This document shows positions 29,979 through 50,463 of a DNA stretch of 64,000 nt, one piece after another (position 1 is the stretch's first letter; the number at the start of each line of letters is the position of its first letter). The position numbers and the translations under genes are program-made. Origin of the DNA: a virus. Taxonomy: Duplodnaviria > Heunggongvirae > Uroviricota > Caudoviricetes. The stretch is from IMG/VR virus record IMGVR_UViG_2563366840_000001. The stretch is one strand, 5' to 3'. The notes under the pieces are model-generated. The model was not told the origin of the DNA. It did no database searches and was given only the letters and a program-made list of their open reading frames with translations.

Positions 29979-30396
29979 TTGACACTCAGATAATGGTTTT
30001 AAGTAAAGTGTACAGGATCGGCTCTGCCTTTACCTGTTTATGGTTCTCGTCATAGAAACGCCAACGACCGCGACTGCGTTCTATCTTTTCTTCACCGCGC
30101 GATAATGACAGTTGACAACTATCACGATCAAACCCTTTTGCCCGCCAGTAACCACGATTTTTCTCAAGCTCAAGATGAGTGGACACTTTAGCAGCTGAAT
30201 ATCCCATTTTTCACCTCTGATTGATTGGTGGTGCTAAGTGCGCTACGCGAAATCTGGAGCACTAACACTGCCAACATTTCGCAGATTTTACGTAGCGCAA
30301 CCTTGATCAAATGATCAAGTGATCACTATTTGACCTGGTAAGGTATTGAACTGTATGGATTTACAGGTAAATTGATCATGTTCAATAACCCTTAAG

Positions 30397-33346: not shown

Positions 33347-33520
33347 AATGGCAGCCTCCTTTGACTAAGTTAAGGAGCTACCGCGTGAGGTTCCAATCTC
33401 AATGGCGGTAGCACTGACTGGGTTGGAACTACCGGCGTCAAAGGGAACCGGCCTGCCTTTCGGCAGCCCAGCCAGCACTACCATTGATCTCTGAGCTAAA
33501 CGCTACGTATGGCCGTGCGA

Positions 33521-33685
33521 TGGCATGACACAAAAAAAGACGCTTTTGGCGTCTGTGTCGCCTTTGACATTATCCGGGGTTCCAATCCCGGCACCCGTTT
33601 TAATGAGGTGCCTGATAAGCATAAACCGAAAATGCCTCAAGGCGCAAGAGGTCAGGTTCAATGTAACATCGGTAGCTAAAAAACA
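33521..33685 (-). ncRNA. Candidate small structured RNA (c4-like antisense regulator) upstream of icd-like/ant-like genes
   Basis: C1 operator-bearing promoter region, hairpin-rich sequence with a GGTTCCAATC motif repeated in the downstream leader, ends in AGACGC-tttt-GGCGTCT stem plus U-run on the minus strand. Confidence 0.3.
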
Positions 33686-37009: not shown

Positions 37010-38053
37010 TCATCTAACGCTCGACGAATGACTTGTGATAGCGCCGACTCCAAGCGCGTAATCAAAGAACAATCGTTGATGCATCGCCAGCCTACCGTGC
37101 GTCTTCTCCCAATTATCGCGGTCACGCTCAATATCACGCTGGCATGACTGGCACAGAGGAATAGCATAAATGTCATGCGCGCATAATCGACTATGACGAA
37201 CGATATAAGGCGTAATGTGAGCGCCAGCTCCCGCAGCTCCACAGCCACAGCATGGACGGGAAGCCACAAAATCCATGTACTCGGGCAATTTTAGCGATTG
37301 AAGTTTTGGTATTTTGAAATGCGCCATGCTAGGGTCGGAGTCAACATCCACAGGGCATACTTTTGCACGCATCGGCGCGGCGCGTTCTTCCATCATCTGA
37401 ACATATGCTGTAGCGCGATCGTCATACGGGCGAATATCCGCCTCTTTCAGAGGTCCACTATCCTGCGGAGTAGCCTTCATCTTATTTATTGATATGCGGC
37501 AGACTTCTTCCGGCATCAGGTGCATCATGTTGCGCATGAAAGCCCACCAGCACAGCTCCTGAATACTTAAATCATGGCTATTTGAAAGGCCCATTTCCTG
37601 ACGGGCGACATCCAGTATCCAGTTAACGCGATTATTGTGCAGCGTTTCTTTCAGCTCATTAAAACCACGCATCCGGTAATGGTTATCGTGATGCCAGCAC
37701 AACAACACCGCGCTATTGTCTCGTTCAGCGTGGACAATATGGTTGTCACACCAACTACGATCTGCGGCCTGGCATTGACCCTCTTTCCTACGCAACCACG
37801 CAACCAGCGCGTCAATTCCACCAATACGGCGAAACAGTTCATCGCTGTTAAAAAACGGCTGCAACGCCTCATTTGTTGCCATGGTTTGCTCGGTAACAAC
37901 GAGGCCGTCTTCCATGTGCTCGATTAACTCACGCGGCACCGGCTCCATAATAAATTTACGGCCAGCCTCCACCAGCTTTCTGACCTCCTGATCCACTTTG
38001 AACGTGGCGAGGCCAAGCTCTTTCTGTACAAAGGGAGTAATTACGGCTTTCAC
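37010..38053 (-). CDS. pdcB: PdcB
   Basis: 347-aa Cys-rich ORF downstream of doc, as in P1. Confidence 0.7.
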
Positions 38054-38080
38054 ATCACACCTTTAATCACTGATTGGGCT

Positions 38081-38281
38081 TTATCTGCTGCCCGGCATTC
38101 TCTGTTTAAGCACAGCCATTTCCTGACGGCATAACACAGCAATAGCGGTCCTGGCACCAATTTGCCTACCAACCAGGTATTGCTTTACCTCGCGGCGACT
38201 CACGCCATCAAGAAGCATCTTTAACGCTTCACGGGACAACTTGTTGTATTTACGTGCCATTAATCTACTCCGCAGAACCAT
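38081..38281 (-). CDS. Small protein downstream of doc (pdcA position)
   Basis: 66-aa track ORF; likely start at internal MARKYNK (38260) just after the doc stop. Confidence 0.45.
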
Positions 38282-38645
38282 ACAATCTACGTAACGTGTC
38301 GGCGACAGAAGATACAGATATCTCGCCAGTCGCAGCGCCTACGGTAAGGTCTGCCAGTTCAGGTGAATCAAATACCTGCACCCCGTTACGGCGTAGAAAT
38401 AGCAGCGCACTGTTTAGCGCGGTACGCTTATTGGCATCATTGAATATATGCCCTCTCGCTGTAGCCACCAGGTAGGTGGCGGAGACTTCGAAAAGGTCGG
38501 TGATCTCTTCGTAGGCAACTCTGGCCTGAACTCTCCCGATAATGGCCTCTGCCCTACCCGGATCTGACATTCCCGGCAGGCCGCCGTAGCGGCTTATATT
38601 CGCATCATGAAGCGCAATAAGTTCTTCCGGTGATATATGCCTCAT
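38265..38645 (-). CDS. doc: Doc toxin (Fic-fold kinase)
   Basis: 126 aa with Fic motif [12 protein letters not shown]; matches P1 Doc. Confidence 0.97.
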
Positions 38646-38866
38646 TATCGGTTAACCAGTTCCTTGTTGGTGGAGTCCAGAGTGTCAAACAGGGATGCAA
38701 ATTCAGCATCCAGCGCCGCTTTTTTGTAGGCTTCGAAAGTAGCCTTGCTGACAATTACTGCTGGCTCACGGCCTCTGCGGGTGATTTCAACCTCTTCCCC
38801 GGCTTCAACATTGTTGAGCACTTCAGAAAGGTTGCCGCGCGCGGTACGGAAGTTAATGGATTGCAT
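38645..38866 (-). CDS. phd: Phd antitoxin
   Basis: 73 aa [39 protein letters not shown]; overlaps the doc start. Confidence 0.97.
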
Positions 38867-38872
38867 AAACAC

Positions 38873-38896
38873 CTCGTGTACTCGTTATGTGTACAC
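38873..38896. promoter_or_regulatory. phd-doc operator palindromes
   Basis: GTGTAC half-site plus perfect TGTGTACACA palindrome immediately upstream of phd. Confidence 0.7.
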
Positions 38897-38938
38897 AATT
38901 ATAAACTTCACAGGCATAAAGCACCAGCACTTTGCAGC

Positions 38939-39328
38939 TTAAATCACCGGACAATCATCAAACTCCCCACTTCGGGCATCATTGATGACATGAGTGATCA
39001 CACCAAAAACAGCATTACTGCCCGTGCATCCATCGTCATCTACTGGTAACGCCTCTTTCTTCCCGGTGCTTAAATCCTCCAGGTGCTGGCGCGGATACTT
39101 CCTGTATCTCTTTATGCGATATTCACCCTCCATAGCGCACACAAGCAGAGAACCATCAACCGGAGTAAGCGAGGAATCAACCACCAGCAAAGCACCCTGC
39201 AATATTCCCTCACGGTGATGGCTATCAGCTGCCCGCATGAAGTAGGTTGCTGATGGATGCCTGATTAGTTGCTGATCAAGAGAAATTCGGCTTTCAACAT
39301 AATCCGCCGCAGGAGAAGGGAAGCCCAT
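38939..39328 (-). CDS. humD: HumD, UmuD-like S24 peptidase
   Basis: 129-aa UmuD-prime-like protein; LexA box in its promoter region. Confidence 0.9.
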   Translation of the reverse strand: MGFPSPAADYVESRISLDQQLIRHPSATYFMRAADSHHREGILQGALLVVDSSLTPVDGSLLVCAMEGEYRIKRYRKYPRQHLEDLSTGKKEALPVDDDGCTGSNAVFGVITHVINDARSGEFDDCPVI

Positions 39329-39347
39329 AGCGTTTCCACCTCAATAA

Positions 39348-39367
39348 TACTGTTCATTTATACAGTA
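39348..39367. promoter_or_regulatory. LexA (SOS) box
   Basis: TACTGTTCATTTATACAGTA fits CTG-N10-CAG with flanking TA; lies between divergent humD and the downstream plus-strand gene. Confidence 0.85.
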
Positions 39368-39502
39368 TACATTAAAGAGACACCTTTGGTGCAAACGCGT
39401 TACGTACATCAACCACCGCTGATGATTTTGTGCGCTTTGCTACTATTCATCACCAACGGATCAGCGTAACCTCGTTGCCAATCAGTTAATAAGGAATTAG
39501 CT

Positions 39503-40087
39503 ATGCCTAATCGCATTCCTCTCGATCCTGTATTGCCCAAAAATTTTGACTGCACTCCTAACGAGAAACGCTTTAAAGCTCAGCTGGACGCCTAGTGGGA
39601 CCATCCATATGGGGTTACACAACCTGACGGGAAAATTGTAGTTTATTGTCTGAATGGTGGGGCGTGGGACCGTCCATCCGTGCTTTGTTTGGCAGATAAC
39701 TATGATGAAGCCTGTGAACTTGCCGAAAGACAGCAGGCAAGCTGGGTAAAAACACGGTCTGAACCGACATTCATGTTTTCAAAAGAACCGCCATTTATAC
39801 TGGCGAGGATGTCGCAGCGACCGGATCATCAACAAGAAATTGTTGCTGAATTTTCCTCAAGGGATGAGATGAATCTCTTCTCATTAAAGCAGGAAGAAAG
39901 GGATCGCGTCGAAGTGTCTCCAACTCTCGACCACAACCGGATGAACCTGGCCCAGCTCGCCTGGTACAGCAAAGAATTAGAGATGTCTATTGCCCGGCTT
40001 GAAAACGAAAAAGCCGCTATCCAAGTCCAGCACGAAGTAGTTCTGAACCGGATTAGAGAAATGCAAAACGATAACAGGGGATTTTGA
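39503..40087 (+). CDS. LexA-regulated gene (lxr position) interrupted by an in-frame TAG at codon 31
   Basis: ATG 39503 with AAGGA SD, TAG at 39593-39595, same frame continues to 40087; the track ORF alone begins at GTG 39680, which has no convincing SD. Confidence 0.5.
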
Positions 40088-40444
40088 ATGGCTAAAATCG
40101 AGTACCATCGCGATCGCAGTAATTACCTGGAAATATACGATCATGAATCTCTTAACGATATCAACGATGCGTTATATGAATACTGTGAAAAAACGAGCAT
40201 CACAGATGCACCTGATGCATTTGTCGAGCTGCCGGTATATCTCCGCGACATCTATGCAATACGAACACCGCCCGTATCGGTGATTCACATTGGCTATGTC
40301 CGCCTGTCCATCGAAGAAGATGAAGATCGTTATATCGTGCGCCACTATACATTGGACAGAAAAGAACTTCCTAATGAATGGAACATGAGTAATTTCTACA
40401 ACGGTGAATATGGCTTAAAATCCGCTAATAATTTACGGTCATAA
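40088..40444 (+). CDS. Hypothetical protein
   Basis: 118-aa ORF; its ATG abuts the upstream stop (TGAATG). Confidence 0.6.
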   Translation: MAKIEYHRDRSNYLEIYDHESLNDINDALYEYCEKTSITDAPDAFVELPVYLRDIYAIRTPPVSVIHIGYVRLSIEEDEDRYIVRHYTLDRKELPNEWNMSNFYNGEYGLKSANNLRS

Positions 40445-40997
40445 TCTATACAGGCATGTATAACAACAACGAGCCTATTAGCTGTCAACAACGTTATTTC
40501 CTCAAATAAGAAAAAGCAGAAAACAAATTGTTTAAGGTCACAAATTGTGGCCTTGATGGAGGAGGGAGGCTTATTGGCTATGGCTAAAAATCAAATTAGA
40601 CACTTCATGTTGCTGTAGCTCATCAAGATCCGAGGCCACAAAACCTTTTCCGAAAAACTTCACAAGTAACTCACTAGCCGCATCATTGTCACCTATTACA
40701 CGAAAGTCATACGGCAACGTCGCAAGTTGACGATGTAATCCTGCTGAGAAAGTCGAATCTAACAGCGCCCAGAATTCCCACCGCAGGATAATACTCGCCT
40801 CTTAATACTGTATATATGTTGTTACGATATGTTTTTCTGTCTCTAAAAAAAGATGTTAATAGAATGCTAACCATTGAAGGGGATAAAAATATACAATTCC
40901 AACAAACGTTATTTTTAACAATTTTTTTCTTTGCGTTGACTTTCCCGGACACCTTGTCTGACCGAAGGTGCGCGAAAGCCACTTTTTCCTTCCTGAG

Positions 40998-41006
40998 TTA
41001 TCCACA
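40998..41006 (+). promoter_or_regulatory. DnaA box consensus TTATCCACA in an AT-rich noncoding island
   Basis: Exact 9-mer match; single site, function unknown. Confidence 0.3.
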
Positions 41007-41306
41007 AAGTTATGCACTTGCAAGAGGGCCATTTTCTACATATTGTGGTGGCTAACAGATGAAATGAATGTAGATTAATTGAAGATAAGGAGAAAATTTG
41101 AGATGCAATCATGACGTTAATAGATAGGGTCTGCATTACAGACCCCACCCGCATCAAGGAATTAGCCGTTCCCTGATGTTTTTCCGAAAACATGTGCCGT
41201 AAGCTCACGTTAACGACTTTCATTCACCGAATCCAACTATATAGGGGTTGGGTTTCTACGTCAACGTGAGCAAGTGCACCTTTACATTTGACAAGGAACC
41301 ACCTGA

Positions 41307-41444
41307 ATGAACGCTTTTTTTCAGTTCCTGAGTGCATTTTTAGATGCGCCTATTATTAGCCAGATTCTGGCTATTATCCTCATCATCGTTTTGATTTTGC
41401 TTTTAAGGTCAGTAAAAAATGGAATTATGCACTGGCTTACTTAA
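41307..41444 (+). CDS. Small hydrophobic peptide (45 aa)
   Basis: MNAFFQFLSAFLDAPIISQILAIILIIVLILLLRSVKNGIMHWLT, single predicted TM helix; preceded by long inverted repeats. Confidence 0.3.
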   Translation: MNAFFQFLSAFLDAPIISQILAIILIIVLILLLRSVKNGIMHWLT

Positions 41445-41463
41445 TGTTTCAGTGAAACATTAA
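41441..41463. repeat. 23-bp perfect palindrome TTAATGTTTCAGTGAAACATTAA
   Basis: Overlaps the stop of the small peptide ORF and lies at the end of the convergent minus-strand operon. Confidence 0.6.
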
Positions 41464-41519
41464 AATCTCCTTGATGTGGAAACAATCATTTTCTGTATGT
41501 GCTGGTGGGCACCTGTAGT

Positions 41520-48116: not shown

Positions 48117-49007
48117 TCAGGCTGCCAGATCATCGTTTCCGATGGAAGCATAATAAGCTTTTTCTGCTTCTGCCGGAGGAGTATGGCCCAGCCTTTCCAG
48201 CAATCGTCGATTGTTATACCAGTCCACCCACGTGAGTGTGGCCAGTTCCACTTCTGCACGGTTTTTCCAGCTCTTACGGTGTATTACCTCCGCTTTGTAA
48301 AGACCATTGATGCTCTCCGCCATCGCGTTGTCATACGAGTCGCCTGTACTTCCTGTTGATGCCAGTAATCCGGCTTCCTTAAGCCGCTGTGTGTAGGCCA
48401 GCGATACATACTGAGAACCTTTATCACTGTGATGGACCGTGCCGGACGGTCGACGGGCCCATAACGCCTGCTCCAGTGCATCCAGCACGAATGTCGTTTC
48501 CATGGACGATGAGACCCGCCACCCCACGATGTATCCGGCAAACACATCAATGATGAACGCCACATAGACGAAGCCCCGCCATGTGCTGACGTAAGTAAAA
48601 TCAGCCACCCACAGCTGGTCAGGTCGTTCTGCCACGAACTGACGGTTTACGCGGTCGCCTGCGGCAACGGCTTTCCGGCTGATGGTCGTACGGACCTTTT
48701 TACCCCGGAGAACACCGGCAAGTCCCATAACCGCCATGAGACGTGCCACAGTGCATCTGGCCACTCTGATACCTTCCCGTAACAACTGACGCCAGACTTT
48801 ACGCACACCGTATACCTTGTGATTTTCATCGTATACGCGCTGTATCTCTTTCTTCAGCCAGTCATCGCGCTGCGCACGGGCACTGCGTTTATCCGGATGA
48901 TGTCGCTGTTGCTGACAGTGGTAATACGTTGACGGGGCAATATGCAGTTCGCTGCATAGCGGTCCGACCCCGTACTGCTCACGCAGCTTATCCAGCAGTG
49001 GCATCAT
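48117..49007 (-). CDS. IS3-family transposase OrfB (DDE catalytic domain), expressed by -1 frameshift from OrfA
   Basis: DDE integrase core; frame overlaps the orfA end at the A6 slippery sequence. Confidence 0.9.
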
Positions 49008-49330
49008 TTTTTCCAGAGGCGGTCGAACTCCGCCTTCGCAAAATAAGCGGAAGCCTGGCGAAGGATATCGTTACTGCGGCGCAGTTCACGATTTTCACGT
49101 TCCAGCTCTTTCAGACGCTGACGTTCAGCGGTGGTGAGCCCTCCATCACCGCCCCCGGTATCCCGCTCATGCTGGCGAACCCAGACACGCAGAGTCTCCG
49201 GCGTACAGCCAATCTTTGGAGCAATGGAACAAATTGTCGCCCATTGTGAGTCATATTCGCTCTGACTTTCCAGAACCATACGGACTGCCCGTTGACGGAC
49301 TTCGGGGGAAAAACGAGTATTTTTAGTCAT
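49004..49330 (-). CDS. IS3-family transposase OrfA
   Basis: 108 aa with HTH and leucine zipper; ends WKK at an AAAAAA run. Confidence 0.9.
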
Positions 49331-49770
49331 CCTGTTTACCTCTTTCTCAGGAAGTTTAGTCTCCAGGATTCCCGGGGCGGTTCAGAATGCACTCCAGATA
49401 TGCGCTTTTACACTATTTGGTATCCACAGGGCACCGCTACCACGATATTGTGGATGGTAAAAATCCCTAAGCATGGTGAAGCTGGTTGGTGGATTCTCAA
49501 GGATTGGGCGTATATCACCGGCAATAACCGTGTCCAAATCCAGATAGAACAGATCATCGGTTATATCCGGTCGGAACAACTCGATTTTCGCCCACCAGCC
49601 ACGGCACTTTTGCCACTGGTTGATCAATGGGATAACTTTGACGCCAGGTACATGTAAACGCTTCAGGTCTGTCAGGCAAATAATTTCATAGCCTTTTGGC
49701 AGTTGATTAACCAGCCACTGCACATCGGAAGCGTTATAGTCACCACCAGAGCGAAGAACTAAAGCAATCT

Positions 49771-50463
49771 TCATGCTGCACCATCACCTTTCACTTTCAT
49801 CAATGTCAGGTTTCCGCAAAATACGGCACCAGTATCGATATAATGCTGATTCCAGAATGTCTTCGGGCTTTTCACCAGAGTGTGACCAAAGATAAAACGA
49901 TCTGCGCCCGAAATTTCGCCACCAATATCATCCATCGAATCACTGATACGCTCGCGCGCCCAGACAACGTTGAAAAGCGGCACCTCCTTACCGAATTGAT
50001 ATTCATTATCCGGATAGTCGGCATGGGCTATAACGATAGTTTCTTGCCCGGTGTTCAACTCAATGATATAGGGCAGTCGTCTTACCAACTCCACCAGCGC
50101 CCTGGCTAATATTTCCTGATCAGCGTCCAGCATGAAGAACCATTGACCGCCATTCATTAGCCAGTTATTCACGTTGCCATCAGGACTTAACGCATCAATC
50201 ATCAGCCGCTCATGGTTGCCCATAACCGCTCTGAACCATGGCATCTGCAATAGCTCCAGGCATTTAACATTTTCGGTGCCGCGATCGATAAGGTCGCCGA
50301 CCGATATCAGTAAATCCTGCGCAGGGTCAAAATCCACACGATGGAGTTCGGACATCAGTCTGGTGTAGCAACCATGCAGATCACCAACAACCCAGATATT
50401 CCTGTATTTGGTACCGTCGATACGGTGATAAATTGTGGGTGCCATCATGTATTCTTCAGCCAT
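49771..50463 (-). CDS. Ser/Thr protein phosphatase, calcineurin-like metallophosphatase
   Basis: Motifs GDLHG, GDLIDRG, GNHE. Confidence 0.85.

What the first reader, a model, noticed from the sequence alone, without database searches (positions are those of the whole stretch)
39348..40087. In-frame amber codon in the LexA-regulated gene next to humD
A perfect SOS box precedes an ATG with a strong SD at 39503. The frame hits TAG after 30 codons and then continues open for another 163 codons to 40087. The only downstream start is a GTG with no convincing SD. This looks like an amber mutation, a recent pseudogene, or a suppressor-dependent gene.
Basis: seen in the sequence. Interest (0 to 1): 0.55.

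Follow-up and report, generated by a model that had tools for sequence, protein, structure and literature searches.

The report
Natural amber allele of P1 lxr
The in-frame TAG is real: one G-to-A change turns an invariant tryptophan codon of the SOS-regulated phage-P1 gene lxr into a stop, and this knock-out allele is carried by about one in eight to one in six lxr-bearing P1-like plasmids, so it is ordinary.

Summary
A unique consensus LexA box (39348-39367) lies between humD and an SD+ATG at 39503. The frame stops at TAG 39593-39595 after 30 codons and stays open for 163 more codons to 40087.

The gene is lxr (P1 'LexA regulated function', P7 upf94.2). P1, P7, SJ46 and pJIE250_3 all have TGG (Trp31) at this codon, so the window carries a G>A transition at 39594.

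Trp31 is nearly invariant in a conserved N-terminal domain found across Proteobacteria. The first in-frame restart, GTG 39680, would lose most of the conserved N-terminal residues. The allele is therefore a null.

It is neither an error nor private. The same TAG is in 24 of 193 complete-genome E. coli plasmids, 30 of 164 PLSDB plasmids (E. coli, Salmonella, Shigella), 3 of 39 IMG/VR contigs and many metagenome contigs.

RefSeq annotates these plasmids with the truncated 135-aa ORF.

Other independent nonsense alleles exist (Q40*, E112*, E137*). pN/pS is 0.39 for lxr and 0.04-0.09 for humD, phd and doc. lxr is non-essential in a P1 CRISPRi screen.

There is no tRNA and no other in-frame nonsense codon in the window, so nothing supports suppression or recoding.

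Verdict: ordinary, already-sequenced loss-of-function polymorphism; low interest.

The parts
38939..39328 (-). humD (UmuD'-like, S24 peptidase family), intact, divergently transcribed from lxr
   Evidence: 129-aa ORF. Annotated humD in P1, P7 and SJ46 at the aligned position.
39348..39367 (.). LexA (SOS) box TACTGTTCATTTATACAGTA in the humD-lxr intergenic region
   Evidence: Only match in the window, 0.06 expected by chance. Annotated in P1 as 'LexA binding site in the regulatory region of lxr and humD'. Binding and regulation were not tested here.
39491..39495 (+). Shine-Dalgarno AAGGA, 7 nt before the lxr ATG
   Evidence: Read directly from the sequence.
39503..39595 (+). What is left of translatable lxr: ATG, 29 further sense codons, then the amber stop (30-aa peptide MPNRIPLDPVLPKNFDCTPNEKRFKAQLDA)
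   Evidence: Some gene callers call this 30-aa ORF in identical contigs.
39593..39595 (+). TAG replacing TGG (Trp31); G>A at 39594
   Evidence: TGG in P1, P7, SJ46, MH422554, pJIE250_3 and others. W31 is invariant in two family alignments and at least 90% conserved in the third.
39596..40087 (+). Remaining 163 codons plus stop of the lxr frame, still open but behind the stop
   Evidence: 98-99% identical to intact P7-type lxr.
39680..40087 (+). 135-aa GTG-start ORF, the form RefSeq/PGAP annotates in TAG-carrying plasmids (WP_001354543.1, 'hypothetical protein'). It lacks residues 1-59 of the conserved domain.
   Evidence: Domain boundaries from the AF2 model.
39573..39573 (+). C>T, Ser24Phe. 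Lineage-specific missense change that arose after the TAG.
   Evidence: Absent from other TAG+S104 contigs L061 and L063-L065 and from all TGG sequences.
39812..39812 (+). C>T, Pro104Ser. Shared with the TGG plasmid pJIE250_3.
40088..40444 (+). Downstream gene (P7 upf93.6 homologue, 118 aa), intact. Its ATG abuts the lxr TGA, so it is likely co-transcribed and may suffer polarity.
   Evidence: The polarity is inference only.

Best explanation
The window is part of a P1/P7-like phage-plasmid, and the gene is lxr, which sits back to back with humD across a LexA box. A single G>A transition at 39594 changed the near-invariant Trp31 codon (TGG) to amber (TAG).

Shown here: the base change, its position in a conserved domain, and its spread among plasmids.

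Inferred: when LexA is cleaved and the region is transcribed, ribosomes start at ATG 39503 and release a 30-residue peptide at 39593-39595. The remaining 163 codons are not translated to any useful extent. Any restart at GTG 39680 would give a protein missing most of the conserved N-terminal residues. The allele is therefore a null (an unannotated pseudogene). It may also reduce expression of the downstream upf93.6 homologue.

The null is tolerated because lxr is dispensable for the plasmid-prophage. It has persisted and spread with its plasmid lineages, by descent and recombination and possibly by recurrence.
For: - Orthologues have TGG at codon 31, with the same ATG and a 190-194 codon CDS.
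- W31 and most of residues 1-57 are invariant or near-invariant in homologues from Enterobacteriaceae, Pseudomonas, Xanthomonas, Bradyrhizobium and Burkholderia.
- The AF2 model (pLDDT 88-92) puts residues 1-~118 in one compact domain, so a start at codon 60 cuts it in half.
- The same TAG is in 24 E. coli complete-genome plasmids against 169 with TGG.
- It is in 30 PLSDB plasmids against 134, and in 3 IMG/VR contigs against 36.
- The window's exact 135-aa truncated product is on record in at least 51 blocks of the assembly collection. This excludes a sequencing error.
- Dispensability: independent nonsense alleles Q40*, E112* (16 E. coli plasmids against 155 wild type) and E137*, plus apparent frameshifted or deleted forms.
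- pN/pS is 0.39 for lxr, against 0.07 for humD, 0.09 for doc and 0.04 for phd.
- Nonsense variants occur at about the mutational expectation: 4 of 29 non-synonymous variants against 5.9%, P about 0.09.
- lxr scored non-essential in the P1 CRISPRi screen (PMC10695390).
Against: - No expression data exist here: absence of full-length protein, use of the 39503 start, and LexA control of lxr are inferred from sequence and from the P1 annotation.
- The downstream 163 codons have no second disabling mutation in any TAG carrier examined. That is expected at this low divergence, but it does not prove decay.
- The four-gamete pattern between 39594 and 39812 shows the history includes either recombination or recurrent mutation. 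A simple single clonal origin is not established.
Confidence: 0.85

Rival explanations
1. Adaptive loss. Lxr is costly or toxic when the SOS response is induced, so null alleles, including this TAG, have been positively selected repeatedly in P1-like plasmids.
For: - At least four different nonsense alleles plus apparent frameshift and deletion forms.
- Two of them are at appreciable frequency: W31* about 12-18% and E112* about 9%.
- TAG sits on at least two haplotype backgrounds.
Against: - The share of nonsense among non-synonymous variants is not significantly above the mutational expectation (P about 0.09).
- Most plasmids keep an intact gene, and the N-domain is strongly conserved in distant relatives.
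- The frequencies can be explained by hitch-hiking in successful plasmid lineages. TAG plasmids are typed 'mobilizable' far more often, 16 of 30 against 3 of 134, which points to a distinct lineage.
Confidence: 0.12
2. A shortened functional protein. The 135-aa product from GTG 39680, as annotated by PGAP, is made by independent initiation or re-initiation and keeps a function through the C-terminal coiled coil.
For: - The downstream frame is intact in all TAG carriers.
- The C-terminal helix 149-193 is a confidently modelled separate element.
- One TAG carrier (L009) has GTG>ATG at exactly codon 60.
Against: - There is no convincing SD before 39680.
- The product would begin inside a beta-strand and lack most of the invariant N-terminal residues: W31, C49-G53 and W55-D56-R57.
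- Met60 also occurs in intact homologues (P0011, P0038), so it is not evidence of compensation.
- Divergence is too low for ORF intactness to mean anything.
Confidence: 0.06
3. A suppressor-dependent or read-through gene. TAG is decoded by a host or phage suppressor tRNA or by programmed read-through, giving conditional expression of full-length Lxr.
For: Only that the downstream frame remains open.
Against: - TAG is a minority allele of a site that is TGG in most relatives.
- There is no tRNA gene in the window.
- No other annotated gene shared with SJ46 has an in-frame nonsense codon; the only other hit is an IS3-type insertion.
- Carriers are wild isolates from many hosts.
- From general knowledge, not tested here: a U after UAG is a poor context for suppression, and supE or supF would insert Gln or Tyr at a near-invariant Trp.
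Confidence: 0.03
4. A sequencing or assembly error in this one record.
For: None beyond it being a single-base difference.
Against: An identical TAG is found in many independent assemblies made with different technologies, including sequences 100% identical to the window over 38900-40500 (L011) and 39340-40500 (L060, L062).
Confidence: 0.01

Closest known systems
lxr of phage P1 (NC_005856 gp102, 'LexA regulated function')
   Same: Same position, divergent from humD and sharing the LexA box next to phd-doc. Same ATG. 96.7% nucleotide identity over the first 61% of the 1.2-kb query.
   Different: P1 has TGG at codon 31 and an intact 190-codon CDS. P1 has a different C-terminal end and hot downstream instead of the upf93.6 homologue.
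upf94.2 of phage P7 (AF503408) and the SJ46 and pJIE250_3 orthologues (194 aa, PGAP 'DNA-binding protein')
   Same: Same 194-codon gene followed by upf93.6; 98.9-99.8% identical. pJIE250_3 differs from the window at only three bases over 37900-40907.
   Different: All have TGG at codon 31.
The same TAG allele in public plasmids, e.g. pMRE162, pEC21Z048-103K and Salmonella and Shigella P1-like plasmids (135-aa 'hypothetical protein' WP_001354543.1)
   Same: Identical G>A at the same codon, with the same truncated ORF called by annotation pipelines.
   Different: The ones examined (pEC21Z048-103K, pMRE162 and IMG/VR contig L010) carry Pro104, Ser24 and G at 40118; L009 and L010 also have a different humD/intergenic haplotype. 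The window's sub-type (TAG + Ser104 + Phe24) is shared with KB732924.1 and some metagenome contigs.
E112* (GAA>TAA) allele of lxr in pO111_2-type plasmids of O111 E. coli; also Q40* and E137*
   Same: Independent single-base nonsense knock-outs of the same gene in natural plasmids. The fragments are even represented as separate PHROG families 17145 and 10721.
   Different: Different codons, and ochre instead of amber.
Laboratory amber mutants of P1 (conditional-lethal am alleles in essential genes; from general knowledge)
   Same: TGG>TAG-type nonsense change in a P1-family gene.
   Different: Those were selected in suppressor hosts and lie in essential genes. This allele is in a non-essential gene and occurs in wild isolates and metagenomes.

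Membership tests
lxr / upf94.2 orthologue of P1-like phage-plasmids | Located divergently from humD, next to phd-doc | tested here: met
   ORFs and annotated relatives.
lxr / upf94.2 orthologue of P1-like phage-plasmids | Consensus LexA box in the humD-lxr intergenic region | tested here: met
   39348-39367 is a unique match. It is annotated in P1 and P7. LexA binding itself was not tested.
lxr / upf94.2 orthologue of P1-like phage-plasmids | High sequence identity over the whole CDS | tested here: met
   98.8-99.7% to P7-type genes, 96.7% to P1; PHROG 6164 at E 1.5e-133.
lxr / upf94.2 orthologue of P1-like phage-plasmids | Uninterrupted 190-194 codon reading frame | tested here: not met
   TAG at codon 31. 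It is a disrupted allele of the gene.
Nonsense null allele (pseudogene by point mutation) | The orthologous codon is a sense codon in relatives and differs by one base | tested here: met
   TGG against TAG.
Nonsense null allele (pseudogene by point mutation) | The truncation removes conserved, structurally required sequence, and no in-frame restart preserves it | tested here: met
   Conservation; model; the first restart is codon 60.
Nonsense null allele (pseudogene by point mutation) | Heritable variant, not an artefact | tested here: met
   Independent assemblies.
Nonsense null allele (pseudogene by point mutation) | No full-length protein is produced | not testable with these tools
   Needs a western blot, proteomics or ribosome profiling.
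Nonsense null allele (pseudogene by point mutation) | Signs of relaxed constraint or secondary decay | tested here: inconclusive
   All window-lineage changes in the operon are non-synonymous (S24F, P104S, and G11S in upf93.6), and gene-wide pN/pS is 0.39. There is no second disabling mutation, and divergence is too low to judge.
Suppressor-dependent, recoded or programmed read-through gene | The stop codon is conserved at the site among orthologues | tested here: not met
   Minority allele at 8-18%. Distant homologues have Trp.
Suppressor-dependent, recoded or programmed read-through gene | A suppressor tRNA is encoded by the element | tested here: not met
   No tRNA in the 64-kb window. The rest of the element is outside the window.
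Suppressor-dependent, recoded or programmed read-through gene | Further in-frame TAG codons in other conserved genes | tested here: not met
   Comparison of all SJ46 ORFs with the window. Only lxr has a nonsense substitution; the hdmD hit is an IS insertion.
Suppressor-dependent, recoded or programmed read-through gene | Measurable read-through at the site | not testable with these tools
   Needs a reporter assay in sup0, supE and supF hosts.

The most novel reading that the evidence does not exclude
Loss of Lxr is adaptive, not merely tolerated. The SOS-induced Lxr protein has a conserved, structurally unclassified N-terminal domain plus a coiled coil. On this reading it imposes a cost on the plasmid-prophage or its host, and independent null alleles (W31*, Q40*, E112*, E137*, apparent frameshifts) have been selected repeatedly. 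The W31* allele may even have arisen more than once.
Probability: 0.12. Interest if true: 0.4.

Novelty: already known. Interest (0 to 1): 0.14.

Why it matters
It matters little for biology at large. It is a common knock-out allele of a non-essential accessory gene.

It has three practical uses:
- Annotation. RefSeq calls the 135-aa GTG ORF a normal 'hypothetical protein' in TAG-carrying plasmids, where 'lxr, disrupted by a nonsense codon' would be more accurate.
- A lineage marker for P1-like phage-plasmids.
- A natural set of lxr-null and lxr-intact plasmids that could be used to find out what this uncharacterised SOS-regulated gene does.

Tried and rejected
- Sequencing error: rejected. 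The same TAG is in many independent assemblies.
- Orthologues starting at the downstream GTG: rejected. All intact orthologues use ATG 39503, and the N-terminus is highly conserved.
- Suppressor tRNA or wider amber use: no tRNA and no other nonsense-interrupted gene.
- Function by sequence families: no Pfam, NCBIfam or PADLOC hit. Only PHROGs of unknown function match, and there is no PDB sequence hit.
- SOS linkage in distant homologues: no CTG-N10-CAG box upstream of the gene in the Pseudomonas/Xanthomonas plasmid or Klebsiella phage-plasmid contexts; the one match, in L049, lies about 730 nt upstream beside merR.
- Promoter scan: no sigma-70 consensus match between the LexA box and lxr by the simple scanner, so the lxr promoter is not located.
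- Enrichment of nonsense variants as evidence of positive selection: not significant.
- The P1 genome paper (PMC523184) is not held.

Full report
**What is there**

The region 38200-40450 has the gene order doc, phd and humD on the minus strand. An intergenic region follows, and then two plus-strand ORFs.

The window matches P1-like phage-plasmids (Punavirus). The 1.2-kb query 39300-40500 is 99.3% identical to Salmonella phage SJ46 and 98.9% identical to P7. It is 96.7% identical to P1 over the part they share, and 99.8% identical to E. coli plasmid pJIE250_3.

In those records the plus-strand gene is lxr ('LexA regulated function', P1 gp102) or upf94.2 (P7). It is followed by upf93.6 in P7-type genomes and by hot in P1.

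**Observation check**

- The LexA box TACTGTTCATTTATACAGTA at 39348-39367 is the only match to TACTGT-N8-ACAGTA in the window; 0.06 are expected by chance. P1 annotates the same site as the LexA site of lxr and humD.
- AAGGA (39491-39495) precedes ATG 39503.
- The frame reads 30 codons and hits TAG at 39593-39595. It then stays open for 163 codons to TGA 40085-40087.
- The first in-frame start after the stop is GTG 39680, codon 60.

**Nature of the TAG**

In an alignment with P1, P7, SJ46 and MH422554, every orthologue starts at the same ATG and has TGG at codon 31. The window differs by G>A at 39594. The same holds for all other TGG loci fetched.

- 190-199 aa full-length forms, mostly from Enterobacteriaceae.
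- 130-135 aa proteins from Salmonella, Klebsiella, Pseudomonas, Xanthomonas, Bradyrhizobium, Mesorhizobium and Burkholderia, which align only with residues 1 to about 125.

In these alignments the N-terminus is among the best conserved parts. M1, I5, P6, P9, L11, P12, F15, T18, N20, R23, L28, D29, W31, W32, D33 and the C49-L-N-G-G, W55-D-R motifs are invariant or conserved in at least 90% of sequences.

AlphaFold models (pLDDT 88 and 92) show one compact alpha/beta domain covering residues 1 to about 118. In the P1-like proteins a long C-terminal helix follows at 149-193.

A product starting at codon 60 would begin inside a strand and would lack most of the invariant N-terminal residues. The TAG is therefore a nonsense mutation in a real coding sequence.

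**Not an error and not private**

I used allele-specific 31-mers, built so that every 28-base BLAST seed spans the SNP. Counts were:

| Collection | TAG | TGG |
|---|---|---|
| Complete-genome E. coli plasmids | 24 | 169 |
| PLSDB plasmids | 30 (17 E. coli, 11 Salmonella, 2 Shigella) | 134 |
| IMG/VR contigs | 3 | 36 |

The E. coli carriers come from human, chicken, pig, mink, deer, fish, crayfish, soil and wastewater isolates. They include three sub-strains of MRE162.

In the TAG plasmids examined, RefSeq annotates the 135-aa GTG ORF (WP_001354543.1, 'hypothetical protein'). No feature is annotated over the TAG site in any of the TAG plasmids.

The window's own 135-aa truncated product, which also carries Pro104Ser, is on record in at least 51 blocks of the assembly collection. 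Scaffold KB732924.1 of GCA_000351905.1 is identical to the window over 39340-40500.

**History of the allele**

Over 37900-40907 the window differs from the TGG plasmid pJIE250_3 at only three bases:
- 39573 (S24F)
- 39594 (W31*)
- 40118 (G11S in the downstream gene)

All three are G:C>A:T changes in the window. The TAG carriers compared directly (L009, L010, pEC21Z048-103K, pMRE162) have Pro104; L009 and L010 also have a different humD/intergenic haplotype.

All four combinations of 39594 and 39812 exist. TAG has therefore either recombined between backgrounds or arisen more than once. I cannot tell which.

Some TAG+Ser104 contigs still have C at 39573, so S24F came after the stop.

**Why a null is tolerated**

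- Other natural nonsense alleles of lxr exist: Q40* (CAA>TAA, pPK5086-95kb), E112* (GAA>TAA) and E137*. E112* is in 16 complete-genome E. coli plasmids, including pO111_2-type, against 155 wild type.
- Shorter forms that look frameshifted or internally deleted are also present among protein clusters.
- Across about 47 sequences, pN/pS is 0.39 for lxr and 0.27 for the downstream gene, which has two nonsense alleles of its own. It is 0.07 for humD, 0.09 for doc and 0.04 for phd.
- Nonsense variants make up 4 of 29 non-synonymous variants, against 5.9% expected from mutation alone (P about 0.09). Nulls are not being purged, but positive selection is not demonstrated.
- lxr was scored non-essential in a genome-wide CRISPRi screen of P1 (PMC10695390).
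- The hot-lxr-humD block is one of eight variable regions of P1-like phage-plasmids (PMC9603915).

**Tests of the suppressor or recoding idea**

- ARAGORN finds no tRNA in the window.
- I compared all SJ46 ORFs of at least 70 aa with the window. Only two annotated genes show an in-frame stop. One is lxr. The other is an hdmD-like gene, which is in fact interrupted by an IS3-family element.
- TAG is the minority state at this site.
- From general knowledge, not tested here: U after UAG is a poor suppression context, and supE or supF would insert Gln or Tyr at a near-invariant Trp.

**Mechanism**

Shown: the base change, its location in a conserved domain, and its population spread.

Inferred: on LexA cleavage the divergent humD/lxr region is transcribed. 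Ribosomes start at 39503 and terminate at 39593-39595, releasing a 30-residue peptide, so no functional Lxr is made. The roughly 490 untranslated bases may cause some polarity on the downstream gene, whose ATG abuts the lxr stop and which has its own GGGGA SD.

**Function of intact Lxr**

This remains unknown.
- There is no Pfam, NCBIfam or PADLOC match, and the matching PHROGs have no known function.
- PGAP's name 'DNA-binding protein' is not backed by anything I could reproduce.
- Distant homologues sit in other contexts and have no LexA-type box upstream of the gene. In Pseudomonas/Xanthomonas plasmids the gene precedes a resolvase gene. In Klebsiella phage-plasmids it sits next to a HEPN/Toprim gene.

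**Verdict**

This is an ordinary nonsense knock-out of a known, dispensable gene. The allele is already present in many public records, and the finding is of low interest. The mild curiosity is that lxr is knocked out repeatedly in nature.

Noticed in passing
window 39745-39776 (+), PAM position 39742-39744; L069 1502-1533: About 1,000 E. coli chromosomes carry a type I-E CRISPR spacer identical to 32 nt inside lxr. It is the trailer-end spacer of the cas2-iap array. In the window and 46 other loci the protospacer is perfect but the PAM is CTG. The 10 P1-type loci have an ATG PAM but a seed mismatch at position 4, plus others. No locus combines a consensus PAM with a perfect match. A paper already reports the oldest CRISPR2.1 spacer matching P7 and pO111_2 (PMC4422515).
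   Followed up: partly
lxr in related loci: L006 (codon 40), L020/L030/L035/L040/L043/L044 (codon 112), L016 (codon 137): There are three further independent nonsense alleles of lxr. E112* is in 16 complete-genome E. coli plasmids. PHROGs 17145 and 10721 look like the two halves of the E112* allele.
   Followed up: yes
window 40088-40444 and homologues in L006, L007, L027: The downstream gene (upf93.6 homologue) also has natural nonsense alleles: K35* in L006 and L007, E77* in L027. Its pN/pS is 0.27. L006 has both genes knocked out. The gene is intact in the window.
   Followed up: partly
Lxr protein family (P0001-P0120): The N-terminal ~125-residue domain of Lxr is a widespread, strongly conserved and uncharacterised family. 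It occurs on plasmids and phage-plasmids of Enterobacteriaceae, Pseudomonas, Xanthomonas, Bradyrhizobium and Burkholderia. It has no Pfam model and no convincing PDB fold match despite a confident model. The C-terminal coiled coil is found only in the longer (about 190-aa) homologues.
   Followed up: partly
window about 48900-49774 (-); Rfam ALIL pseudoknot 48933-49049 (-): The hdmD-like gene is cut after about 130 codons by an IS3-family insertion, shown by an orfA-like transposase reading frame and the ALIL frameshift pseudoknot.
   Followed up: partly
window 30351-30366: A second CTGT-N8-ACAG motif (CTGTATGGATTTACAG) lies in the GATC-rich region next to loxP, upstream of cra/cre. Whether LexA binds it is unknown.
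   Followed up: no
PLSDB typing of plasmids with TAG or TGG: TAG-carrying plasmids are typed 'mobilizable' in 16 of 30 cases, against 3 of 134 TGG plasmids. This suggests the main TAG lineage carries an extra mobilisation module or oriT.
   Followed up: no
L009 (IMGVR_UViG_2778261693_000004), codon 60 of lxr: One TAG carrier has GTG>ATG at exactly the first in-frame restart codon (V60M). Met60 also occurs in intact homologues, so this is probably coincidence or recombination.
   Followed up: partly
window 40445-41500; divergence from pJIE250_3 begins at 40908: This stretch downstream of the operon is AT-rich (38.9% GC against 47.9% for the window) and has no long ORFs. It occupies the position where P1 has hot-upfO-upfN-upfM. 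Its content was not examined.
   Followed up: no
window 33401-33488 (-) and 33533-33611 (-): Rfam finds C4 antisense RNA and isrK, as expected for the P1 immI region.
   Followed up: no
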